Source of the DNA: Azolla caroliniana
Lineage: Eukaryota; Plantae; Polypodiophyta
Direction of reading: 5' to 3'
DNA: 15,247 nt
Assembly: GCA_043228905.1 (NCBI GenBank)
Contig: JBHGNT010000807.1
Span: 1 to 15,247 of the forward strand
The stretch's first letter is position 1, and every line of letters begins with the position of its first letter. A program made the position numbers and the translations under genes. The notes under the pieces are model-generated. The model was not told where the DNA came from, made no database searches, and was given only the letters and a program-made list of their open reading frames with translations. Of the stretch, positions 1-15,105 are shown one piece after another.

Positions 1-756
1 AGTCGGGTGGGAACCGCCGAGGTTTTGGACTAGGAGAAAGAAGAATATGAGATGAGGCTAGTAATAAATAGATTATTAGAAAGAGAGATAGAAATTTCGT
101 GAATCCCACGAGTGTATTTTATTCGATTAATCAATATTTAGATAAGAATATGTATTTAGATTGAAAGAAAGATATAAGAAACTTGTGAATCCCACAAGTA
201 TAGATTATATTATTTTCGTGAATCCCACGATTATATTAATCGGTTGGTGTTTTCGGAAATATATCCAATTTCCAAATATTTCACACGCCTATTACATTGT
301 GCTCCCCATCCTTATGTAGTGATGGGAGAGACTAAGCATAGCTACATGCTTTTTTTCTAATATATTCATGCACACTAAATGTGCATGTGATGCTTTTCTA
401 ATCCTTGCTTTTATTTGCTAAATATAGTGCTCATGCACGCTAGATGTGCATGAGTCACTTTTTTGTTGCTTGCATTTTTCTATAAAATATTCACGCACTC
501 TAAAAATGCACGATTTATCTTTGAATAAAGGTAGGTGCAAATAAAGCACTTATAGTTATTAAATCTATTTGTAAAACACTAAAGATAAGGTAGCATAATG
601 GTAAAGTTAAGGTTTGGTTACGTGGAGGTACAGGGTTCGAATCCTACCTTATGCACGTGATAAATATCTTGATATATTATTTTATTTATTTATATGTAAT
701 TAAATCGGTTATATTATTTTTACTTTTTCACGTAGTGTACGAAATACACTACGACA
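1..756 (-). mobile_element. LTR, family A, copy A1 (5' LTR or solo LTR; about 32 bp cut off by the left window edge)
   Basis: 1-83 aligns with 4007-4089 and 84-~330 aligns with 9420-~9666. Both copies end in ...CGTAGTGTACGAAATACACTACGACA (756 and 10081). Copy A2 begins TGTCGT at 3975, giving TGTCGT/ACGACA terminal inverted repeats. Orientation comes from the PPT beside copy A2. No PPT follows 756; copia gag sequence starts immediately. Confidence 0.9.
584..654 (+). promoter_or_regulatory. tRNA-derived Pol III type-2 promoter-like cassette (A box + B box) inside LTR A1
   Basis: A box TAGCATAATGG 591-601 and B box GGTTCGAATCC 634-644. ATAAGGTAG 585-593 is the reverse complement of CTACCTTAT 644-652. 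A TTTT run follows at 680-683. There is no intact anticodon arm. Confidence 0.75.
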
Positions 757-3700
757 TCGTTGGGAGGCATGCTCAAGCTCACCGGCTCCAACTATTCCAT
801 GTGGAAGTCGAAGATGAAGGACATGCTCGTGGTTAAAGATCTTTGGTTGCTAGTTCAGTTCGGGGACAAGAGACCAGACAAAATCGACGCCACGAGATGG
901 GAGGTGATGCACATGAAGACAACGGCATAGATATGGTGCTTCATCGACATGAGCCTATACAACAACTTCAATGAAGAGAGCAAGGCTCAGGACCTCTGGG
1001 AGAAGATTGGCATTATGTTTTAGAACAAAAATGATGTTAACCAGGTTTCGGTATTCCGGAAGCTAGTAAGACTCCGGTACCAAGATGGCTCCAGCATGGC
1101 GGAGCACATGAATGCCTTTCAGGGGCTGATACACCAGGCAACATCATTGGAAATACCTCTCGCCAATGAGGTACTAGCGGTACTCTTGCTCGGTTCCCTC
1201 CCGGATAGCTGTGAGACGTTGGTTGTCACTTTGGGCAACGCAGGGCCGGAAGGGAAACAATTATCCCTAGCAAGAGTGAAGTCGAGCTTGCTAGATGAGG
1301 AGGCGCGTTGGAAAGATAAGGACACGAACTACGACTCCAAAGCGCTCCTTACCGAATCGGAACACGGAAGACAAAGGAACCGTAATCCCCAGAACCAGGA
1401 AAAATCGGGGACACAGTCAAAGTCAAGGGGGAGGCCTACTTGCTTCTATTGAGGCAAGCCGGGACACTACCAAAAGAACTGTCGGCATTTCCGTAAAGAC
1501 AAGGAAACCAATGGTACCGATTCGAAGCAAACCCCGGACCGGAACAGTAAAGACCGGAGGGGGCCGGACCGGAAGGGAACAACGGCAATCGCGGCAAGTG
1601 AAGAAGAGTTGATGCTCATCACCGAGGAGAGTGAGCTAAACCTTACCGACGACGAGATGACCTGGGTGGTCGACTCCGGAGCGTTGTTCCACCTTACCCC
1701 GAACCGGAAATGCTTCTCATCCTACTCAGCCGGTGATGACGGTTGTGTCCGTATGGGGAATGAAGGTACATGCCGAATTGTCAGCATAGGAGGCGTGTTG
1801 TTGAATACACCAACCAGATGCAAGCTGCTGCTGAAGGATGTCCCACATGTTCTGGAGGTTCGTCTGAAGCTGATATCAGCCGGTCGGCTAGATGATGAAG
1901 GTTACACTGGTAGCATCCGTAACGGTGTTATGAAGTTTAGCAAAGGGAGCCTGATTGTGGCTCGGGCCCGGAAGGTAAACACATTGTACCTTATGAATGC
2001 CTGGTTATGTCTGGAGGAAGTGAATGTGGCATCCGACACTCCGGTGAGTTGTGTCACATGAGGAGAAGGCGATAAGAGGCTTGCAGACAACAACCTCATT
2101 CGAGTTAAGAACGTGCACTTGGAGAACTACACTGACTGTTTGGCCGGTAAACAAAACCAGACCTCCTTCCGATCGAGACCACCGATGAGACATAATGCAC
2201 CACTCGAGTTGCTGCATACTGATGTATGTCAAGTGGACACGAAGTCACATGGTGGATCGCAGTATTTCGTGACGTTCATAGATGACCACAGTCGGAAGCT
2301 GTGGGCCACACCGTTGAAGACGAAGGATCAGGTGTTATCTGTCTTCAAAGAGCTCCACGCGAGAGTGGAAAGAGAAACTGGCCGGAAGCTGAAGGCGGTT
2401 CGAGCAAATAACGGAGGTGAATACCGGGGGTAGTTCGAGGAGTACTACCGCTCGAAGGGAATCCGGCTCGAATTTACTGTGCCGAAGATGCCGGAACTAA
2501 ACGGGCTGGCCGAGAGGATGAACCCAACCATAATGGAGAGGCTCCGGAGTATGTTGGCGCATGCAAAACTACCCAAGAAGTTTTGGGCTGAGGCACTGTC
2601 GACGGCGACATATGTGATAAACAGATCACCCTCAATACCCTTGGACGGAGACACGCGATAGAGAGTTTGTACCGGTAAGGAAGTGTCCTACCGGCATCTG
2701 AAGGTATTCGGGTGTCTCGCGTATGTGCATGTAGCTAAGGACCGGAGAGGAAAACTAGATTTGAAGACCCGACCATGCATATTCCTCGGTTACGGCGACG
2801 ATGAGTTCGGCTACCGAGTGTGGGACCTAGTCCAGAAGAAGGTATTCCGGAGTCGAGATATTATCTTCATGGAGGACAAGACGCTCGCCGACTAGGAGTC
2901 GGAGAAGAAGATAATAAACTCCGAGTTGACCGGTAAGGATCGATTCTACGATGAGCCGACCCAACCGGCAAGAGACCGGTTAGCACTCGAGGAACCAGCC
3001 GGTTACGGTGAGGATACTGAACCGGCAGAAGAAGAAGTAGAGGAAGCTGAAACCGGAACCGGCCAAGACCCCGAATCAGATTCAGATGAAGAGCAAATGG
3101 AGGAGCCGGTTACCGAAGCCCGAAGACGGAGATATCCTCTCAGAGAGAGAAGGCCCCCCCGGAGATTTCCGGATGCAGAGCATGTGCTGCTAACCGATGA
3201 GGGGGAGCTAGAAAGCTTCGAAGAAGCGAAGGATGACACCCACAACCGAAAATGGTTAAGTGCCATGCAGGATGAGATGGATTCCTTGCATGAGAACCAT
3301 ACGTACGAATTGGTGGAGTTGCCGAAAGGAAAGCGGGCAATCCGAAACAAGTGGGTGTACAAGTTGAAACCGAGAGATGCCGGCAACCCCCCGAGATACA
3401 AAGCCAGGATCGTGGTGAAGGGGTTCCAGTAGATGAAGGGCATGGACTTCGACGAGATATTTTCCCCGGTAGTAAAGATGACCTCTATCCGGACGGTGCT
3501 GAGTATAGCGGCAAGCATGGACCTCGAGGTAGAGCAGCTGGACGTGAAGACGATATTCCTTCACGGTGACCTCGAAGAGGAGATTTACATGTAGCAACCG
3601 GAAGGATTTGTGGAGAAAGGGAAGGAGCACCTGGTATACTGGTTGAAGAAGAGACTGTACGGACTGAAGCAGGCTTCCCGACAATGGTACCGGAAGTTCG

Positions 3701-3974
3701 ACTCCTTCATGACCGATCAAGGGTACCACAAGACGCAGACCGATCACTGTGTGTTTGTGAAGAATTTCGAAGGAGGCGACTTCCTGATACTCCTTCTGTA
3801 CGTGGACAAGATGTTGATCATCGGACGGGACCAAGCCAAAATACGGATGCTAAAGAAGGCTCTCAACCGGACCTTCTCAATGAAAGACTTGGGTCCGGCA
3901 AGACAGATGCTGGGGATGCATATCATCCGGAACCGGCCAACGAAGCAATTGTGGCTGTCGCAGGAGAAGTACGT
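757..3974 (+). mobile_element. Ty1/copia retrotransposon C (Tnt1/Tork-like), internal region only, interrupted at both ends by family A LTRs
   Basis: Copia domain order gag-PR-IN-RT is present. No LTRs of its own are in the window. RT breaks off at LWLSQEKYV|TGTCGT (3974/3975). Confidence 0.92.
769..3974 (+). pseudogene. Degenerate copia gag-pol polyprotein of element C
   Basis: Gag N-terminus MLKLTGSNYSMWKSKMKDML from 769. UBN2-type gag LLLGSLPDS. Zinc knuckle CFY*GKPGHYQKNC 1441-1482. Protease WVVDSGA 1663-1683. Integrase LELLHTDVC...YFVTFIDD...VRANNGGEY...ELNGLAERMN 2113-2895. RT NKWVYKLK...YKARIVVKGF, QLDVKTIFLHG, LYGLKQASRQW, LYVDK (degenerate YVDD) ~3250-3974. Multiple in-frame stops and a small indel near 2045-2100. 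Confidence 0.92.
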
Positions 3975-4089
3975 TGTCGTGCCTTTCGTCTCCGGATCGT
4001 TGCGTGAGTCGGGTGGGAACCACTGAGGTTTTAGACTAGGAGAAAGAAGAATATAAGATAAGGTTAGTAATGAATAGATGATTAGAAAG
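3975..4089 (-). mobile_element. LTR family A copy A2, left segment (split by insertion of element B)
   Basis: Starts TGTCGTGCC at 3975 exactly where copia C RT homology stops. 4007-4089 matches 1-83 (8 mismatches by eye). Confidence 0.9.
4085..4089. repeat. 5-bp target site duplication GAAAG of element B (left copy; right copy 9415-9419)
   Basis: ATTA-GAAAG-TGTTGAG... and ...TTCTACA-GAAAG-AGAGATAG. The uninterrupted site ATTAGAAAGAGAGATAG is present in LTR A1 at 75-91. Confidence 0.97.
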
Positions 4090-4524
4090 TGTTGAGAGAC
4101 AAGCTCAACATCGGCCGGATCGGCTGAAGAAGCCGAGGACCGGATCGGTTGGGACCGATCGGTTAGGCCGAATGCGTAAACCGGTACGCAGACCGGTGCG
4201 TAGGTAGGGCTGGATCGGTGCGGAAACCGGGAGGCCGTTAGGAAAGATATTCCGTGAGGAATATATTTGGGAGTTAGTGTAGGAGCTCTCAATGAGCATT
4301 GAAGTACTGTCAGTACTTTAGTCAGTCCTTCTAGGACTTGTATAAAAGTGTTCACTGAGCACGTCTTATGTACAGATCGAGTATTATTGTTGAATATAGT
4401 TCTTGTGATTTCACTCTCTCTGTCTCTCTCGTGTATACTGTGTAAGCTCAAGTTCTGCATTAAACCTAAGTTTTTCTTCCTTTAGTTCGGTCTTCATACT
4501 TGCTTCCGCACGCTACTTTCTACA
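4090..4524 (+). repeat. 5' LTR of element B (435 bp)
   Basis: TGTTGAGAGAC...CTACTTTCTACA, a direct repeat of 9050-9414 with 6 substitutions and a 70-bp indel. TATA-like TATAAAA at 4341-4347. Confidence 0.97.
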
Positions 4525-4535
4525 TGGTATCAGAG
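4525..4535 (+). promoter_or_regulatory. Primer binding site complementary to the 3' end of initiator tRNA-Met
   Basis: TGGTATCAGAG immediately after the 5' LTR; this is the standard plant copia PBS. Confidence 0.95.
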
Positions 4536-7500
4536 GGCGAGGGTTGAGAACCTCTCTGCAGCCGACACAGCTTGACGAAGAAGAGCAAGAAGAACGATGG
4601 ATAGAGGCATGGCGATCTTGCTTCCAACAAAGAAGCTTGACAGAACCAACTACGCGTTTTGGTCCTACAAGATGCACCAGTACCTGCTCGGGCACGGGTA
4701 CTGTAGTTATGTCGAAGGATCTAATGACGCGGCACCCAAATCGACACACAGAGACTTCCCGTCGTGGGAGCAATCGGCGAGCAGGGTATTATACTGCTTT
4801 GCATCGTGTGTGGGCGAACAACTATTGAGCTATGTTCGGGATGCCAAGATGCTGAAGGGTGCGTGTGAAAATCTGAAGAAGATTTTCGCCGCGAGCACCA
4901 CAGCGAGGAAGCTTCAGCTCCAACAGGAGTTGAGCAACCTACGACAACGCGACTTGTCGGTGGCGGACTATACCTCGAAGATCAAGGATATCTGCGACTC
5001 CCTCGGCTTCATAGAGGTGAACATCGAGGAGAGCGAGATGGTCCAGGTCTGTCTCGGAGGTTTGGCGTCGAAGTTCGGAGCGTTCCGAACGGCCGTGTGT
5101 ACCCGGGAGAATACGCCGTCCTTTTTCGACTTACAGTCAATGCTCCTGGTAGAGGAGAACCACGCGGGTGCGTCTACAAGCACGCACTGCGACAGTAGAA
5201 TGTTGTACACGGAGGGAGATAGGCCCCGTGGACGTGGAGGACGAGGCGAGTCGGCGCGCAATGGAGGCGGCCGACGAGATCAAGGAAGAAGGCACTGAAG
5301 TGATGCCGACAGCAACTCTGGACCCTCAAGAAATAGGGGGAGTCGAAGCGATGAGAACCGGCAAGGGAAGGCCATCGCGGAGTGTTGGTACTGTGGCAAG
5401 AAAGGCCACAGGGAAAGTGAGTGCTGGAAGAAGCGCGCCGATTCGGAGAGAACCGGTTCCGGAAACGGCTCCGGACATACCGACAAGGGAGATCGGCAGC
5501 GATCGCACTACGCCGAAGACTCCGGGAGAGCCGGAGAAGGGTCTACCTTCGTGACGAGACACGAAGCAAACTCAATGAAACAGACCACCCCGAGATCGGA
5601 TGAGGTGTGGTACGTAGACTCCGGCGCGTCAAACCACATGACGAGCCATAAGGAGTGGTTCTCGTACCTTGAAAAACTGATACAACCATAAGGTGTGGTA
5701 CGTAGACCACGTCAACTACCAGCGGCTTCAAGATCTGTAATTAAAAGAGGTAGTGTTCGGATTGCCCAAATTTAGTGGCCGAAAGGCACAAATTGGTGAA
5801 GCCTGCCAGCTCGGGAGGCAACACCGACTTCTTTTCCCCAATGAGCGAAACCGGAGCTGGAACAAGCTCAACCTTATACACTCCGATGTATTGGGGCCAA
5901 CACAAAACGTTAGTCTCGGCGGGAGCCGATATTTCGTCTCCTTCATCAACGACCACACGCGGCACATGTGGATTTACCTCATTGAGAGGAAGAGCGAAGT
6001 CTTCAACTGTTTTCGGGAACTCAAAGGGTTCGTGGAAACGGAAATTCAACAGTTATCTACAACAAATGGGAATTCGGCGCGAATTCAGTTGTAGATACAC
6101 GCCGGAGTAGAACGGCGTGGCCGAGAGGAAGAATCGGTCAGTTGTGGAAGCGGCACAGGCAATGCTAGAGGAGAAGAGCTTGCCCAAGTTCTATTGGGCC
6201 GAGGCGGTAAGGACCGCGGTATACATCCAGAACCGGATCGGAGACAAAGTGTCGGTGCACGAGCTATATTTCGGAACGAAGCCGAACTTGCGACACTTGA
6301 GGGTGTTCGGTAGCATTGCGTATGTGCATGTACCGATGGAGAAAAGGAGGAAGCTGGACCCAAAGGCCGAGAAATGCATCTTGGTCGGTTACTCGGACGA
6401 GCAGAAGGGCTATAAGTGCTATAACCCTCGCACCAAACAAGCGTGTGTTAGCCGTGACGTTATGTTTTACGAGTTTGCGTCCTGGTATCAACCCCCGACT
6501 CCGCACCCCGACTCCAATCCGAGCTCTGATGATGAGGTCAGCGAGGCCGAGATGCCTCCGGATGAGCCCGAAATCGAGTCCCGCGAAGAGAGTCCGATTT
6601 CACTCCGTTTAAGTGGACCGATTGGACGACTGAGTCGGTACGACCAATCCGATGAAGAGCCGACGAGTAGTGGAGACTCCGCCGTGCATTCCCCGCGTAG
6701 GAAGCTGAGGAGACGGCTTACACGCGAAGAGAAAGGGAAGAAGAAGGTGTCGGATTCCGGCACGGATAGGAACGGTCGGATCGACACGAGTCCGACTTCG
6801 AGGGAAGTGGCGACGGACCTTCAAGAACGAAGTCCGCGTCAGCCGAGAAGACCTCGACATCGGCAAATGACCGATTGCGCCAATCTACCTACCAAAAGAA
6901 CCCAGTTGTGCGGTTCGGATACAACGAGTACATGGCGCATCACTATGCGTACATGACCCGTGTAGCGGAAGTGCGTGAGCCGGAGAGCTATGCAGAAGCG
7001 GCTAAAGACGCGACTTGGCGTGCCACGATGGAAGAAGAGATGCACGCATTGGCGGAGAACGAGACTTGGGACTTGGTTGACACACCGAAGGGTGTGAAAC
7101 CGATCAGGTGTAGGTGGGTGTACAAGGTCAAGTACAACACCGATGGCTCGGTCAACCGGTACAAGGCTTAGCTAGTGGCAAAGGGCTACACGCAGAAACA
7201 CGGCATCGACTACGATGAGACATTTGCGCCGGTCGCGAAAATGACGACCGTCCGCGTTTTGCTCACAGTAGCTGCGGTGAAGGGGTGGCACTTACATCAG
7301 ATGGATGTAAAGAATGCGTTCCTGCAAGGTGACCTCGTGGAACATGTGTACATGGTACAGCCCCCCGGATTTCACTCTGGAACGAATTCCTCGGCAGTAT
7401 GCCGACCGAAGAAGTTCCTTTACGGACGGAAGCAAGCCCCGCGTGCCTGGAACGCGAAGATCACGCAACACTTGCTTCGGATGGGCTTCGTCACGTCAAA

Positions 7501-8508
7501 ATCGGACTCTTCCCTGTTCATCTGGAAAGGTCGACTCAGACCGGTTAGTATTTTACTATATGTTGATGACTTGGTCATCACCGGCGCCGACCTAGGTGAA
7601 ATCGACCGCGTGAAGCTCCAGCTTGCGGCATCGTTCGACATGAAGGATCTAGGGGACCTTCATTACTTCCTCGGGATCGAAGTGATCCGTACCCCCGAAG
7701 GCATATTGATCAGCCAACGTCATTACGTGCTAGGTATGTTGTTCAAATTCGGGATGGCCGACTATAAGTCCGTCTCGACTCCTCTAGACAGAACCGTCAA
7801 GCTTTGTCTCGATACGGGAAGGGTATGTGACCCGACGAGGTTCTGACAAATTGTCGGAAGCCTCATATACTTGACCATCACCCAACCCGACCTCAGTTAT
7901 CCGGTCAGAGTGATCAGTCAGTTCATGGCGCGACCTACCGAGGAGCACCACCAGTGTGCGCAATGCATACTTCGGTATGTCAACGGCACTAAGGACCAAG
8001 GACTGCTATATCGGACCGGTGCAGCCGCATAGTTAGTCGGCTACACCGATGCTGATTGGGCTAGCAATGCCGCCGATAGCCGATCCACGTCCGGATACGC
8101 GTTCTCCCTCGGAAGTGCCGCGATCGCGTGGAGCAGTAAGAAGCAGCCGACAGTTGCACTGTCGAGCACCGAAGCTGAGTACCGAGGAGCGGTTATTGCG
8201 ACATGCGAAGCCATATGGTTGAAGTGGTTACTTAAGGACCTGCAAGAGGAGGTGTCCAATCCAACGACGATCTACTGCGATAACCTCAACAGCATCCAAC
8301 TTGCGAAGAACCCCATCTTCCACGCACGGACCAAGCACATTGAGGTCCATTACCATTTCGTCCGAGATCGTGTCCTTCCCGGTGAAGTCGAACTTTAGTT
8401 TGTGCCGACGGATCAACAGACTGCCGACATCTTCACAAAGCCTCTTGGTTTGGACAAGTTGCGGCAATTCTCAGGTGCACTCGGATTGTGTCACCTCGAC
8501 GTGCCAAA

Positions 8509-8520
8509 CTTGAGGGGGAG
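8509..8520 (+). promoter_or_regulatory. Internal second PPT-like motif at the end of RNase H
   Basis: CTTGAGGGGGAG is identical to 9038-9049, which abuts the 3' LTR. Confidence 0.6.
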
Positions 8521-9040
8521 AAATGTCCCGAATGACCAAGCAAGGCAGCAGTAAAGGAACGGAGACTGTCACACCAAGTCGGTTGACTCGGTTGTCGAGT
8601 TCGACTTTGGATCGGCTGAAGAAGCCGAGGGCGGACCCGCGGAAAAGTCCGGAAGCGGACAGAAGGGGAACAGCCGAAGGAGGGAGCCGAAGCCAACCAC
8701 GCATGGGGAAGATGACGCCGTCAAGGGCGAGAAGACTGAAGACAAGTTGGAGACAGCCAACTCGGACGAGAGTGAAAACCGATCGGAGGTAGCCGAGTCG
8801 GTTCGGATGTTTGATTTAGATACGCTGAATCAACCGAGGCCCGAACGGAAGAAAAGGCAGCAGGAGAAGTGTCAACACCGGAACAACAGAAGAGCTGATA
8901 AGGGCCACATGAGCAGACAAGTCGACCGGAAGGGTCGAAGTGCGCGGAGTCGAACAGGTCGAGGAGCGCGAGCGAGGCGTGAAGCCAGGAGGAACTGGAG
9001 CTGTGAGCCCAAAGATCCCGAAGAGCCTCAAGTTGAGCTT

Positions 9041-9049
9041 GAGGGGGAG
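9041..9049 (+). promoter_or_regulatory. Polypurine tract of element B
   Basis: GAGGGGGAG directly before the TG of the 3' LTR. Confidence 0.93.
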
Positions 9050-9414
9050 TGTTGAGAGACAAGCTCAACATCGGCCGGATCGGCTGAAGAAGCTGAGGAC
9101 CGGATCGGTGCGGAAACCGGGAGGCCGTTAGGAAAGATATTCCGTGAGGAATATATTTGGGAGTTAGTGTAGGAGCTCTCAATGAGCATTGAAGTACTGT
9201 CAGTACTTTAGTCAGTCCTTCTAGGACTTGTATAAAAGTGTTCACTGAGCGAGTCTTATGTACAGATCGAGTATTATTGTTGAATATAGTTCTTGTGATT
9301 TCACTCTCTCTGTCTCTCCCGTGTATACTGTGTAAGCTCAAGTTCTCCATTAAACCTAAGTTTTTCTTCCTTCAGTTCGGTCTTCATACTTGCTTCCGCA
9401 CGCTACTTTCTACA
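9050..9414 (+). repeat. 3' LTR of element B (365 bp)
   Basis: Direct repeat of 4090-4524, followed by TSD GAAAG 9415-9419. Confidence 0.97.
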
Positions 9415-9419
9415 GAAAG

Positions 9420-10081
9420 AGAGATAGAAATTTCGTGAATCCCACGAGTGTATTTTTTTCGATTAATCAATATTTAGATAAGAAGATGTAGTTAGATTGA
9501 AAGAAAGATATAAGAAACTTGTGAATCCCACAAGTATAGATTATATTATTTTCGTGAATCCCACGATTATATTAATTGGTTGGTGTTTTCGGAAATATAT
9601 CCAATATCCAAGTATTTCACACACCTATTACATTGTGCTCTCCATCCTTATGTAGTGATGAGGGAGTCTTAGGAATCCATGCTTTTTTTTCTCTAACTAT
9701 AGACTCCATGCTTTTCCTATAGACTATATGCTTTATCTAAAGTGATTATGCTTTTTCTAACTTGTGCGTCTTTTATCAACTATAGCGTTCATGCACGCTA
9801 GATGTGCATGCATAGCTTTTTCTTTTAGCATGCGTTTTTCTTTTAACTAAAGTTTATCCTACGTGAACTTACCTTTTTTATGTAAAAAAGGACATCTACT
9901 TTTTAACATGAATAAAATGCTAGTATAATGGTAAGACATTACATTATTAACATGGAGGTGTAAGGTTCGAATCTTGCCGTATGCATGTTATATATATTTT
10001 AATATTTTCTACTATTTATTCATATTTATTAAATCGGCACTTTATAAGTTTTTCACGTAGTGTACGAAATACACTACGACA
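9420..10081 (-). mobile_element. LTR family A copy A2, right segment; 3' LTR of a minus-strand element
   Basis: Resumes colinearity with A1 position 84 directly after the TSD and ends ...CACTACGACA at 10081. A minus-strand PPT is adjacent. Confidence 0.9.
9914..9984 (+). promoter_or_regulatory. tRNA-derived Pol III promoter-like cassette (A box + B box) inside LTR A2
   Basis: A box TAGTATAATGG 9921-9931 and B box GGTTCGAATCT 9964-9974, with the same 43-nt offset as in A1. TTTT at 9997-10000. Confidence 0.7.
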
Positions 10082-10093
10082 CTCGCCCCCTCC
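10082..10093 (-). promoter_or_regulatory. Polypurine tract of element A2
   Basis: The minus strand reads GGAGGGGGCGAG immediately followed by TGTCGTAGTG (LTR start). Confidence 0.85.
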
Positions 10094-10582
10094 GAACCCG
10101 CACATCCTCCGGTATGTGCCGAAGTTGTCGGTGATTGTTAGTCTCGTCCGTCCGTTTTCCGCATGGTTGGTTTCGTCGCCGGTCATTTTTGGTTGCCGGC
10201 CCCGTTCGGTCTCCGGTTTTTGGTTGCCGACTTCGCCCGGTTTCCGGTTCAGTTCGGTTGCCGGCTCTGTCCAGTCTCCGATTACTAGCCCTTGTAATTC
10301 TTCGTTACTTGTTGTACCCTTTGTTTCTCTCGTTATGTCAGCTTTGTCTCTCCATTTTGAGCACGTCCATTCTTTCCACCCGAACCATTGTTGCCATCCG
10401 ATCCACCATAGTCTTCATTCATTCTTTGCATTGCCATGAGTGGTTGTCATGGTCCCTTGTGGTACTCTTGAGCATCTCAGCGTGTTGTCTCTCTCCACTC
10501 CGTGCTTGTCTTCTGTAGGTTCTACCCACGCGTCGATGTCGACCTCCGAATACGCGCTCGCTGTTAGGTCCTTGTGCGGTTT

Positions 10583-11427: not shown

Positions 11428-14400
11428 ACTGAAGCCCAACGCCAACATCATCAGGACAATGGACTCTGTCTCTATTGTGGCAACCCCGGCCATGTCATCC
11501 GCGCCTGCCTGGTGCGGGGCCTGCTGCACCAATTCCATCGTGCACATCTTGTGGAGGTTCCTCAACAACAAGAAAACGACCAAGTCCGGTTGCAGTAGGA
11601 GCCATGCCGTTGGACACTTCTTGTTATGCATCTTCTCTATGCTCCTACAAGCCCGTTCTGCCATTAGGAGGGTTCTCTTTGCAAGTAATTCTTTGTTTTG
11701 GTTCAACTTCAATACATTATCATGCCTTGCTCGATTTCGGAGCATTTACTTGCTTTATCGATAAATCGTTTGTTCGCGCACATAATATCCCCACTATCCG
11801 CACATCACAACCCATATTCGTTGAGGCGATTGACAATCGGGTTCTCTCTTCGGGGGCAGTTCCCGAAGCCACTATCCCATTGGTACTTCAAGTCCGGGCG
11901 CATCAGGAGGAACTCACGTTCTACCTCATCGCAACCCCCCGACATCCGAGTGTGTTGGGGCTATCTTGGTTGGAGACACACAATCCAACGGTGGATTGGT
12001 GTAACCGCTCCATCACTTTTCCAGTAACGCCAATTCCTTCTAGGTCACGACACTCTTTTGATTCCGTTGCGGTCGAGACCGGTTTGGTCGCTACACGGGC
12101 CATTGTGTCAGGGGATGTCACCGTTCCTGTCAACAATTTACCCATCCGATATAACGACTTTTCTGACATCTTCGAAAAGCGGGATGTTGATCGGTTACCG
12201 GCTCATCGCGCCTACGATTGCCCAATCGAACTCCAAGTTGGCGAGCATCCCCCATTTGGTCCTATCTATGGGTTATCTGAACCCAAACTTGAGGCTCTCC
12301 ACATATATCTGGCTAAGATCTCACGAAGGGCTTCATTCAACCCTCCAAATCACCGACCGGGGCACCAATCTTATTTGTCAAAAAGAAGGATGGCTCCTTA
12401 CGCTTATGTGTAGATTATCGGGGCCTCAACAAAGTTACGGTGCATAATCGTTACCCCTTGTGCTTATTTCCAACGCTCCTCGATCGACTCTGAACTGGGC
12501 ATATTTTCTCCAAAATCGACCTTCGGGGCACATACAATTTGGTGCGCATCAAGCCTGGGGACAAGTGGAAAACTGCTTTTCAGACGCACTATGGACATTT
12601 CGAGTACAAAGTGATGCCATTCGACCTTACCAACACTCCGGCCGTCTTCCAACACATGATGAATGATATTTTTCGAGAGTATCTTGATCATTTCATGGTC
12701 ATCTACCTTGACAACATCCTAGTTTTTTCTTCCAACTAGGAGGGGCACACACACCACGTCCAGCTGGTTCTCACCAAACTTCGGGAATATGGGCTGTTCG
12801 CCAAAAATGAGAAATGTGAATTCGATCAAACCTCTATTGAATTCCTGAGTTACATGATCTCACCTACCGGGATGACAATGGATGAACGGAAGGTGGCGGC
12901 AACCACTGATTGGCCTCTCCCGACTCGGCTGAAAGAGGTACAATCGTTTCTTGGTTTTGCAAATTTTTATAGAGGACTTATAAACGAGTTCTCTTCCCTA
13001 GTCCAACCTCTCATCCACCTTACCCGGAAAGATACTCCATTTCATTGGACCCCCGCGGCACACAATGCTTTTAATGCCCTCAAAGCAGCTTTTCTCGCCG
13101 CCCTCGTGTTAGTCCACCACGACCCCACCTGCCCTTTCCAAGTTGAAACCAATGCCTCTGACTTTGCCATAGGTGTGGTCTTGTCTCAGCCCGACGATGA
13201 TGGCACCCTGCATCCGGTCGCCTTTTACTCTCGGATGTTTATAGCCTTGGAAATCAATTATTCGGTCTATAATAAGGAGCTTGTAGCTATCATCTCGTCC
13301 TTTGCCGAATGGCGACCCTATCTGGTTGGGGCCCAACATCGTCTTCAGGTGCTGACTGACCACATGAATCTCATCTACTTCACCACCATTCATATGTTGA
13401 ATCAGAGGCAGGCTTGTTGGTCATCTTTTCTCACCGACTATGACTTCGAAATCTTTTTTCAACCCGGCGTTCAACATGGGAAAGTAGATACTCTCTCTCG
13501 GCAACCCGACTTTGCACTACGCCCAGGTGACGAGGCATATTCTCAGCAATTGCATTGTTTATTGTGTCCCAATCAACTCCAAATGTTAGCAACCTATATG
13601 TTGCAGGATGATTCCTTGCTCAACGAGATCGCCCAAGCAACTGCATCGGTCCCTTTCGCTAGTGACATCATGGTGTGCCTCAACAACCCATCCCAGTAAA
13701 TGCAAAGCTCAGATCTCAGTCACTTTACAAATCAATATGGGCTACTCTATCGTAATCACCTCCTTTACGTACCAACTGGCACATGTCACCCGATTACATG
13801 ATGTCACTTCTAATCAAGGTCCTCAATTTATCTCCCACTTTTGGCACCGAATTCTATAGACATTCGGGACTTTTGAGAACTTGTCAACCGTGCACCACCC
13901 TCAAACTGATGGTCAAACCGAAAGTGTCAACCAAATCCTCGAATAATACCTCCGGTGTACAGTCAACTACCAACAAGAAGATTGGGTGGACTTGCCATGG
14001 TGGAACTTCCCTACAATAATAGTATCCATGCCTCAACTATTGTTTCCCCATTCTTTGCAAACTATGGTTTCCACCCTTGTTTCAGCATTTCCATTCTACA
14101 GATTTCAGTCAATCCATCGGCCGAGAGGCGTGCCCACACCTTACAAGATGTCCATCGTGACCTCTACCTCGAGCTCCGTGCCGCTGGAAAATAGTATAAA
14201 GCTCACACAGATCGACATTGCTTAGTCACATCGACCTTCATAGTCAGTGACATGGTTTGGCTGTTATGTCGCGACATCGCAACCACCAGTCCCTACGCGA
14301 AGCTTGACTACAAAAAGCTAGACCCCTTCTGTATACTTGAGTGCGTTAACCTAGTCGCCTTCCAATTAGCACTTCCTCACACATTTCAGCTTCATAATGT

Positions 14401-14670
14401 TTTCCACGTCTCTCTCCTCGAACTCTACCATCCTTCTCACATTCCAGGACGACAACCTCCTCCTCCACCGCTCGTGGAATTATCGACAAGTGAGGAGTAC
14501 GAGGGTTTTGACCTGATCGTCAACTCCCGCTTGTGTCGACGAAGACTTCAAAATAGTTGGTCTTATGGAAAGGTTACCCTCTTTCAGATGCCACATGAGA
14601 ACCAATTACACATTTACAACATGCGTCAGAGGCAATTCGCGCTTTTCATCAACGATACCCTCATAAACTG
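11428..14670 (+). pseudogene. Degenerate gypsy gag-pol of element D
   Basis: TEAQRQHHQDNGLCLYCGNPGHVIRAC (CCHC knuckle) from 11428. Protease ALLDFGA ~11724 and [72 protein letters not shown]. RNase H VETNASDFAIGVVLSQ, NYSVYNKEL. Partial integrase SNQGPQFISHFW, HPQTDGQTE, SPFFANYGFHP, HNVFHVSLLE. Many frameshifts and stops. Confidence 0.92.
14492..14670 (+). other. Chromodomain remnant at the integrase C-terminus of element D
   Basis: EEYE...IVNSRLCRRRLQ, then after a frameshift VLWKGYPLSDAT*EPITHLQHASEAIRAFHQRYP. This matches the EY-V--I...YLV-WKGY...TWEP chromodomain pattern. Confidence 0.85.
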
Positions 14671-14695
14671 GTCGTGGATGTTAGGAGGCGGCCTT

Positions 14696-14708
14696 AGAGG
14701 AAGGATAA
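14696..14708 (+). promoter_or_regulatory. Polypurine tract of element D
   Basis: AGAGGAAGGATAA directly before TGTCATAGAC. Confidence 0.8.
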
Positions 14709-15105
14709 TGTCATAGACATGCCACGGAGGAAGGTAGGGATTGAACCCAAGACCTCATGGTCTCTATTGGGAAGCCCTACCAATTGAGCTACATATGCAT
14801 CCTTGCACCAAATCCAACTTCGTGTAGTGTAGATTGAACACTGCAAGTTCCTATCTTGCATGCATCCTCATTTCTAGCTTGCACACATTCTCATGCATTC
14901 TCTATTGCATGCATCCTCATGCATCCTCTATTTTCTAGTTGTCTTATATAACCCTACCTTCTTGTATAAATATTCAGGTGCACCTTCATTTTAATCAAGG
15001 TGAAAAACACCAGTTATGGATTCTATAAGTTAAGTTCTTGTTCTTTTCCTCTCTCTTGTTTTCTAGTCTTGTCTTCGCTCTGCTCTATTATACTTGTCCG
15101 TGACA
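14709..15105 (+). repeat. 3' LTR of element D (397 bp)
   Basis: Begins TGTCATAGAC after the PPT and ends GTCCGTGACA (8/10 terminal inverted repeat). TATA-like TATAAATA ~14964 and a pyrimidine-rich 3' part. There is no second copy in the window to confirm the boundaries. Confidence 0.8.
14727..14798 (-). promoter_or_regulatory. tRNA-derived Pol III promoter-like cassette inside LTR D
   Basis: The minus strand reads TAGCTCAATTGGTAGGGC-T-TCCCA-ATAGAGA-CCATG-AGGTC-TTGGG-TTCAATC-CCTAC. A box 14791-14780, B box GGTTCAATCCC 14747-14737. The D stem GCTC/GGGC pairs and the T stem pairs at 4 of 5 positions. Anticodon and acceptor stems do not pair. Confidence 0.8.

What the first reader, a model, noticed from the sequence alone, without database searches (positions are those of the whole stretch)
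584..683. Family A LTRs carry an antisense tRNA-like Pol III cassette conserved inside otherwise diverged U3 DNA
Seen: A1 has TAGCATAATGGTAA (591) ... TGGAGGT ... GGTTCGAATCC (634). A2 has TAGTATAATGGTAA (9921) ... TGGAGGT ... GGTTCGAATCT (9964). The A-to-B offset is 43 nt in both, but the anticodon-arm-equivalent sequence between the boxes and the flanking DNA barely align. Each cassette has a T4 run shortly downstream (680-683; 9997-10000) and points opposite to the element's sense strand, about 100 bp from the LTR 5' end. Established: A and B boxes are the TFIIIC-binding internal promoter of tRNA genes, and Cassandra TRIMs carry 5S rRNA-derived Pol III promoters in their LTRs. From memory, tRNA-bearing non-autonomous LTR elements have also been reported outside plants. 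Inference: keeping the boxes but not the cloverleaf points to selection on TFIIIC/Pol III recruitment. The result could be an antisense RNA of about 85-100 nt, or a tDNA-type chromatin barrier protecting the LTR promoter in heterochromatin.
Basis: partly seen in the sequence, partly recalled or inferred. Interest (0 to 1): 0.85.

Follow-up and report, generated by a model that had tools for sequence, protein, structure and literature searches.

The report
Backward tRNA promoters in moss LTRs
Three different families of jumping genes, likely from mosses, carry a worn-out tRNA gene back to front at the outer edge of their terminal repeats; it no longer folds as a tRNA but mostly keeps the two RNA polymerase III promoter boxes, and likely serves as a protein landing pad that helps keep the element's own promoter open.

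Summary
Both family-A LTRs hold a 73-nt tRNA relic, antisense to the element, with perfect A and B boxes 43 nt apart. All 8 independent metagenome copies that cover the region carry it at the same length. A third cassette lies in this window's chromovirus LTR (14737-14791), and a fourth LTR family in fetched loci has one too, each antisense at the outer U3 edge. Shuffles give 0.06 box pairs per window. The cloverleaf is gone; the inter-box spacer is the only hypervariable part. Family A looks Phygy-like (NCGN targets) and gag-only. Best reading: a tRNA/SINE-derived TFIIIC site kept by active LTR lineages, likely acting on chromatin rather than through a defined RNA. It is not Helenus (sense, non-coding, short). 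The scan noted antisense tRNA relics in fungal retrotransposons before. No expression or binding data.

The parts
584..656 (+). tRNA relic in LTR A1 (73 nt, canonical tRNA register, stems broken), antisense to the element
591..601 (+). A box of A1 (7/7 promoter-defining positions)
605..622 (+). Hypervariable inter-box spacer (anticodon-arm equivalent), fixed length
   Evidence: 6/18 columns shared between subfamilies; 8/18 positions variable in laid contigs
623..629 (+). Conserved TGGAGGT, variable-loop equivalent
   Evidence: 7/7 between A1 and A2, 0.96 between subfamilies
634..644 (+). B box of A1 (8/8 promoter-defining positions; CpG at 638-639)
   Evidence: no variant at 8% or more at 634-643 in four DNA runs
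680..683 (+). First T4 run after the A1 B box; chance-level, the family's usual T4 is at about 667-670
1..756 (-). LTR A1 of family A (runs off the window start by about 30 bp); U3 roughly 756 to 290, R/U5 below
310..318 (-). TATA-like motif of LTR A1, about 270 bp from the cassette start (inferred Pol II promoter)
9914..9986 (+). tRNA relic in LTR A2 (second U3 subfamily); A box 9921-9931, B box 9964-9974, T4 9997-10000
9420..10081 (-). LTR A2, outer (U3-R) part; 3' LTR of a family-A element
3975..4089 (-). LTR A2, inner (U5) part, separated by the nested Copia B; preceded by target ACGT (3971-3974)
10082..10094 (-). Polypurine tract of family A; fixes the element's sense as the minus strand
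   Evidence: same junction in L001, L002, L003, L009
10583..11494 (-). Acidic C-terminal part of a gag-like ORF of family A (broken; Trp-rich tail in another frame at 10082-10414)
   Evidence: 36% identity to P0265, E 2e-27; P0265 1-230 nearest to Retrotrans_gag clusters at 0.93; no Pfam hit
14731..14794 (-). Third tRNA relic, in the LTR of chromovirus family C: A box 14791-14780, B box 14747-14737, offset 44, antisense to the element
14709..15105 (+). 3' LTR of family C (after a purine tract; TATA at 14945)
11433..14700 (+). Decayed pol of family C: protease, RT, RNase H, Tf2-type SH3, frameshifted chromodomain
4090..9414 (+). Nested Copia B (TSD GAAAG, LTRs 359/365 identical); its LTRs carry no cassette
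757..3974 (+). Decayed Copia interior into which both A elements inserted

Best explanation
The outer U3 edge of three LTR families carries a back-to-front, tRNA-derived A-box/B-box cassette whose stems are broken and whose spacer drifts freely, and which is likely kept by the actively copying lineages as a TFIIIC (Pol III) binding site that likely acts on chromatin, holding the outer LTR open and shielding the element's Pol II promoter about 270 bp away. Shown: the cassette, its orientation, its presence in 10 of 10 informative family-A copies and in families C and D, loss of the cloverleaf, relaxed spacer, intact B box in the depth-dominant copies. Inferred: origin from a tRNA gene or tRNA-SINE head captured into U3 and then copied to both LTRs at each round of reverse transcription; TFIIIC binding; the barrier or opening effect. 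Because it points outward it cannot make the element's genomic RNA, unlike Cassandra or Helenus. The benefit would be largest for these elements: family A inserts at CG-centred 4-bp sites inside other transposons, and family C has a chromodomain. Any Pol III transcript (about 85 nt in family A) would be a by-product.
For: Three A/B pairs in 15 kb, all in LTRs, vs 0.062 expected. Same orientation and outer-U3 position in a Phygy-like, a chromovirus and a third LTR family. Cassette length 73 nt in 10 of 10 copies while flanks vary (66-76 and 90-135 nt among full copies). A1, A2 and L007 keep 15/15 promoter-defining positions across two U3 subfamilies only 65-72% alike, whereas tRNA stems pair no better than shuffles. 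Spacer relaxed in two data sets: 6/18 vs 46/55 columns shared between subfamilies, p=1e-4; 8/18 vs 11/127 positions with variants in four DNA runs, p=4e-4. The B-box CpG is the most often mutated CpG in old copies (7 of 8) yet is kept in both subfamilies and shows no variant at 8% or more in four runs under three organism labels. Terminator distance differs between families (22, 131, 183 nt) and no common fold was found, which favours a DNA-level role. tRNA genes in yeast and tRNA-derived SINEs in mouse are described as boundary elements (PMC3258141, passages).
Against: Promoter-defining columns are not better conserved than the immediate flanks (13/15 vs 71/90, p=0.73; variants 1/15 vs 5/72), although chance identity is higher in the AT-rich flanks (0.33-0.41 vs 0.27). 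All 6 A1-type metagenome copies have lost C56 (5 T, 1 G); the tree cannot tell independent decay from an amplified subfamily with a broken B box. A G-to-T change in the A box (593) makes up 44% of depth in run X18 and is in 2 of 8 loci, so a lineage with a damaged A box did amplify. Only 1 of 8 metagenome copies keeps all 15 positions. The C and D cassettes were found with the box scan itself, so their box match is circular; only their position and orientation are independent. Laying at 80% likeness favours copies close to A1. Copia B thrives in the same window without a cassette.
Confidence: 0.48

Rival explanations
1. Passenger relic: a tRNA-SINE head or tRNA pseudogene landed in U3 of ancestral LTRs, had already lost its cloverleaf as a SINE, and now rides along because the outer U3 is conserved for other reasons (Pol II factor sites, integrase end).
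For: Boxes not above flanks; 7 of 8 old copies carry box lesions and an A-box lesion amplified; tRNA-like DNA is common in these loci (tRNA array in L002; further relics), so captures may be frequent; the A and D cassettes resemble each other beyond the boxes, so one capture plus U3 exchange could explain two families. An earlier scan note (e1-9852194, not checked) reached this verdict for a fungal case.
Against: Uniform drift does not explain why only the 18-nt spacer is randomised between subfamilies and among young copies, why length is fixed, or why three families share orientation and position.
Confidence: 0.27
2. The RNA is what matters: Pol III makes a roughly 85-nt antisense RNA from each LTR that pairs with the U3 end of the genomic RNA or feeds small-RNA pathways, so the element limits or tunes its own expression.
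For: T4 at +22 from the B box in six copies from both subfamilies; the block 645-656 after the B box is the best-conserved 11-nt window; some copies fold better than shuffles (A1 z -2.9, L007 z -2.7); foamy viruses make Pol III small RNAs from U3 (PMC3993851, passages).
Against: T4 is expected by chance in 80-84% of shuffles; A2 and L009 do not fold better than shuffles and the folds differ; no covariation; families C and D lack a nearby terminator; the majority of A1-like depth in X1 lacks the +22 T4 (668 C-to-T only 25%).
Confidence: 0.17
3. The conserved motifs are Pol II enhancer sites that only resemble A and B boxes.
For: U3 holds other conserved blocks, such as repeated ATGCA motifs, one of which ends the cassette.
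Against: Exact tRNA register over 73 nt, D-loop, variable-loop and T-loop motifs in place, Rfam tRNA alignment in two unrelated LTRs, 0.062 pairs expected.
Confidence: 0.05
4. The orientation was misread and the cassette is a sense promoter as in Helenus.
For: Both LTR ends read TGTCG, the primer-binding site was not seen in any locus, and the TATA-like motif also occurs on the plus strand in 2 of 7 LTRs.
Against: Purine tract, TATA (6 of 7) and the gag-like ORF all lie on the minus strand for family A; for family C the pol ORFs, purine tract and TATA fix the plus strand and the cassette is on the minus strand.
Confidence: 0.03

Closest known systems
Helenus (TRIMp3; Kojima 2024, PMC10886601; parts 1-4 of 6 of the text, figure legends and tables, searched passages, supplement passages read)
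   Same: tRNA-derived sequence inside the LTR, conserved around boxes A and B, mostly not a functional tRNA; proposed to arise by SINE insertion into an LTR. The paper also remarks that 'not a few' Repbase LTRs resemble part of a tRNA.
   Different: Helenus elements are non-coding TRIMs of 311-1263 bp thought to be transcribed from the cassette; the only plant case is Selaginella, and in its consensus the cassette is in the sense orientation. Here LTRs are 400-780 bp with a TATA-like motif, the interiors encode gag or pol, and the cassette is antisense.
Cassandra TRIMs (as described in PMC10886601, introduction; PMC7215508 seen as search listing only)
   Same: Pol III internal promoter inside a plant LTR.
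   Different: 5S-derived, drives the element's own transcript, non-coding element.
Foamy virus LTR Pol III small-RNA cassettes (PMC3993851, passages read)
   Same: Pol III units in U3 of a protein-coding LTR retroelement.
   Different: Hairpin miRNA precursors with tested expression, not tRNA relics; here no conserved hairpin or terminator, and the cassette points against the element.
tRNA-gene and SINE B2 chromatin boundaries (PMC3258141, passages read)
   Same: The mechanism proposed here: Pol III machinery on a small unit blocks spreading heterochromatin.
   Different: Those are host loci in yeast and mouse; none is reported in the passages read as a part carried by an LTR element, and none in plants.
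Phygy and Tcn1 clades of Ty3/gypsy (Neumann et al. 2019, PMC6317226, passages read)
   Same: Phygy is the one plant lineage with an NCGN insertion preference, matched by family A (10 of 13 flanks NCGN, 3 of 13 the deaminated form). Tcn1 is the moss and club-moss chromovirus clade, matched in make-up by family C.
   Different: Phygy elements are described as nearly all polyprotein; family A appears gag-only. No tRNA-like LTR cassette is mentioned in the passages read. No RT tree was built, so both placements are inferred.

Membership tests
Helenus / TRIMp3 | tRNA-derived sequence with boxes A and B in the LTR | tested here: met
Helenus / TRIMp3 | Short non-coding TRIM (about 0.3-1.3 kb in all) | tested here: not met
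   LTR alone 702-780 bp; interior over 1.3 kb with a gag-like ORF; family C has pol
Helenus / TRIMp3 | Cassette oriented to transcribe the element (sense) | tested here: not met
   antisense in A, C and D; sense in Helenus-1_SMo
Helenus / TRIMp3 | Primer-binding site and purine tract | tested here: inconclusive
   purine tract present; no locus reached the primer-binding site of family A
Functional tRNA gene | Cloverleaf stems and model score | tested here: not met
   ARAGORN 0 genes; Rfam 14.5-14.6 bits vs 29; 46.7% paired vs 47.8% shuffled
Recent tRNA-SINE insertion | Own tail and TSD, present in only some copies | tested here: not met
   present in 10 of 10 informative copies at fixed length, no tail seen
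Type-2 Pol III promoter / TFIIIC site | A and B box consensus at workable spacing | tested here: met
   15/15 positions in A1, A2, L007; 12-14/15 in seven other copies
Type-2 Pol III promoter / TFIIIC site | Boxes more conserved than neighbouring DNA | tested here: inconclusive
   above the spacer (p=0.004) but not above the flanks (p=0.73)
Type-2 Pol III promoter / TFIIIC site | TFIIIC or Pol III occupancy, or a transcript | not testable with these tools
   no ChIP data; only contig runs were offered
Phygy (family A) | NCGN 4-bp insertion preference | tested here: met
   10 of 13 right flanks NCGN, 3 of 13 NCAN/NTGN; ACGT left of A2; L004 flanks ATGT/ACGT; L005 and L010 flanks match only loosely
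Phygy (family A) | RT/RH/INT phylogeny and full polyprotein | not testable with these tools
   no pol seen in family A; gag-like ORF ends next to the purine tract
Tcn1 chromovirus (family C) | Chromodomain after integrase | tested here: met
   chromodomain-like motifs split over two frames at 14495-14670, read by eye; SH3_Tf2-1 E 4e-15
Tcn1 chromovirus (family C) | Clade placement by RT tree; self-priming | not tested
   5' end of the element is missing; no reference set on hand

The most novel reading that the evidence does not exclude
Unrelated Gypsy lineages in mosses have repeatedly armed the outer edge of their LTRs with an outward-facing tRNA-derived TFIIIC site that works as a portable chromatin barrier, letting thousands of copies stay transcribable inside methylated transposon islands and seeding the genome with Pol III factor sites.
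Probability: 0.3. Interest if true: 0.8.

Novelty: new variant of a known kind. Interest (0 to 1): 0.5.

Why it matters
Pol III promoters in LTRs are described for miniature non-coding elements, where they are thought to drive the element's own RNA. An antisense cassette in long, coding LTRs cannot do that, so if it is under selection it points to a different use of the Pol III machinery by retrotransposons, most simply insulation against silencing. It is directly testable in mosses, would add a large number of potential TFIIIC sites to a plant genome, and would confound tRNA-pseudogene annotation. If it is a passenger, it is only a curiosity of LTR evolution.

Tried and rejected
No whole genome is held for this window, so the genome-wide alignment could not be run. 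The LTR-end pattern gave 0 hits in viral contigs and genome contigs; family C's RT-RNase H gave no locus in viral contigs. No RNA holder listed for window 1-790; this says nothing on expression. Two protein searches returned almost only unnamed records and did not name the host. Rfam on the whole window or on five whole loci did not list the cassettes at all; they appear only in 161-nt scans at E 1.4. A test for transcription-linked mutation was inconclusive: C-to-T exceeds G-to-A on the plus strand in the cassette (15/70 vs 10/161 cells) but similarly in upstream U3 (18/187 vs 4/135), and several of these sites are CACG/CATG motif variants. The U3 tree of ten copies separates the two subfamilies (support 100) but does not resolve the A1-type copies. 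L003 first looked like a cassette-free LTR; it is a copy truncated just past the B box inside a host intron, so it was dropped. L017 duplicates L004 (99.9%) and was dropped; seven loci begin within 29-116 nt of the LTR end and do not reach the boxes. No donor tRNA isotype can be read: the anticodon position differs between copies. The bacterial promoter scan is not relevant. Literature searches for this feature in mosses or in coding LTR elements found only Helenus/Cassandra papers; the library lacks most subscription journals, Repbase reports were not searchable, and the supplements of Neumann 2019 were not read.

Full report
Setting. The window is a nest of plant LTR retrotransposons. A decayed Copia interior (757-3974) is flanked by two family-A LTRs; LTR A2 (3975-4089 plus 9420-10081) is split by Copia B (4090-9414, TSD GAAAG, LTRs 359/365 identical); a decayed chromovirus, family C, fills 11433-15105. 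Family A reads on the minus strand: a purine tract precedes A2, a TATA-like motif lies on that strand in 6 of 7 LTRs (on the plus strand in 2 of 7), and the interior ends in an ORF 36% identical to P0265, whose first 230 residues sit nearest to retrotransposon gag clusters. The Trp-rich tail of that protein lies next to the purine tract in the window and three loci, so family A is inferred to be gag-only. A1 and A2 share R/U5 (312/330) but not U3 (166/289 over 331-583).

Observation. All motifs are at the stated coordinates, and 500 shuffles give 0.062 A/B pairs per window against three loci seen. The third is new: A box 14791, B box 14747, minus strand, inside the first 90 bp of family C's LTR, again antisense. 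Positions 584-656 fit a 73-nt tRNA register, and the Rfam tRNA model aligns to A1 and to C at 14.6 and 14.5 bits, below the gathering score of 29. ARAGORN calls no gene.

Other copies. No genome was available. A pattern from the LTR end, outside the cassette, fetched 17 metagenome loci. Nine reach the cassette, one of them a duplicate; one more is truncated just past the B box and seven stop short. All 8 independent informative loci carry the cassette, which is 73 nt in 10 of 10 copies with the window's two. They fall into two U3 subfamilies, 65-72% alike. Of 13 non-internal junctions, 10 read NCGN and 3 the deaminated form. Neumann et al. 2019 (PMC6317226, passages) name Phygy, from Physcomitrella, as the only plant lineage with this preference and Tcn1 as the moss and club-moss chromovirus clade, so the host is inferred to be a moss. 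Loci L004 and L008 also hold a fourth LTR family (D, about 445 bp, TATA on its sense strand in L004) with an antisense cassette at its 5' end, intact in L008 and decayed in L004. Contigs of four DNA runs under three organism labels cover the A cassette at summed depths far above single contigs, so the family is highly repeated (depth is not a copy number).

Conservation, for and against. The cloverleaf is not kept (46.7% of cells paired, 47.8% in shuffles). The inter-box spacer is the outlier: 6/18 columns are shared between subfamilies against 46/55 in the rest of the cassette (p=1e-4), and 8/18 positions carry variants at 8% or more in the laid runs against 11/127 elsewhere in 584-728 (p=4e-4). 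A1, A2 and L007 keep all 15 promoter-defining positions. The B-box CpG is changed in 7 of 8 metagenome copies, more than any other CpG between 540 and 728, yet no variant at 634-643 reaches 8% in any run; this fits selection on copying lineages and decay of old copies. Against this, the boxes are not above their immediate flanks (13/15 vs 71/90, p=0.73), all six A1-type metagenome copies lack C56 and the tree cannot exclude shared descent, and an A-box G-to-T change holds 44% of depth in run X18. Columns and copies are not independent, so the p-values are rough.

Mechanism. Facing outward, the cassette cannot produce the genomic RNA. The distance to the first T4 differs among families (22, 131, 183 nt) and the predicted folds differ among copies, so a shared RNA product is unlikely. 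What the families share is a B box with an A box at fixed spacing at the outer U3 edge, about 270 bp from the TATA-like motif in family A. From established knowledge TFIIIC binds mainly through the B box (recalled), which would also explain tolerance of the A-box lesion. tRNA genes in yeast and tRNA-derived SINEs in mouse act as boundaries (PMC3258141, passages). I therefore rank a TFIIIC-based opening or barrier role first (0.48), a passenger relic second (0.27) and a functional antisense RNA third (0.17). Binding, transcription and effect are all untested.

Comparison. Helenus (PMC10886601) is the closest family, but it is short, non-coding and, in the plant consensus seen, sense-oriented; two defining features fail here. 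Foamy viruses carry Pol III small-RNA units in U3 (PMC3993851, passages). A survey of Physcomitrium transposon expression (PMC7466625, passages) has no occurrence of 'tRNA' or 'polymerase III' in its main text. Seven searches found no description of antisense tRNA cassettes in moss LTRs, but Kojima notes that not a few Repbase LTRs resemble part of a tRNA, so the sequences may be on record. Gag-only LTR elements have been called TR-GAG (recalled, no call). Earlier notes of this scan report antisense tRNA relics in fungal retrotransposons, one judged a passenger, and none for this stretch.

Verdict. Real, recurrent in three families, a new variant of a known kind; function plausible but not shown. 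Interest 0.5.

Noticed in passing
window 14709-15105: Chromovirus LTR with its own antisense tRNA-like A/B cassette 28-83 nt from the 5' end, with a nearly complete D stem.
   Followed up: partly
L008 864-1309; L004 about 1286-1743: A fourth LTR family (D) whose 5' terminus coincides with the 3' end of an antisense tRNA relic; the L008 copy resembles family A past the B box, hinting at a shared donor or U3 exchange. No TSD was found.
   Followed up: partly
window 1-330 vs 331-728 and A2 equivalents: A1 and A2 have 95% identical R/U5 but about 60-70% identical U3, suggesting U3 swapping between subfamilies.
   Followed up: partly
window 10082-10414 (-); L001, L002, L009; P0265: Conserved Trp-rich motif at the end of a long acidic gag extension just before the purine tract; 26 library proteins at E 0.001 or better, no Pfam family.
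   Followed up: partly
L005 and L010, left LTR junction: Both solo LTRs have GG between the loosely matching 4-bp target and the LTR end, possibly an untrimmed cDNA end.
   Followed up: no
L002 879-1972 and nearby: Tandem array of about 740-bp units with tRNA-Asn and tRNA-Thr genes and decayed copies in opposite orientation, next to a truncated family-A element.
   Followed up: no
window 355-523, 9778-9821, 14849-14923: Repeated ATGCA/CATG motifs in the U3 of both families A and C, candidates for Pol II factor sites.
   Followed up: no
window about 11430: Family A interior (minus strand) joins directly to the end of family C gag (plus strand) with no LTR between, so both elements are truncated by a deletion or rearrangement.
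   Followed up: no
window 731-753 and 10056-10078: The family-A LTR end holds an 8-bp inverted repeat hairpin just inside the terminus.
   Followed up: no
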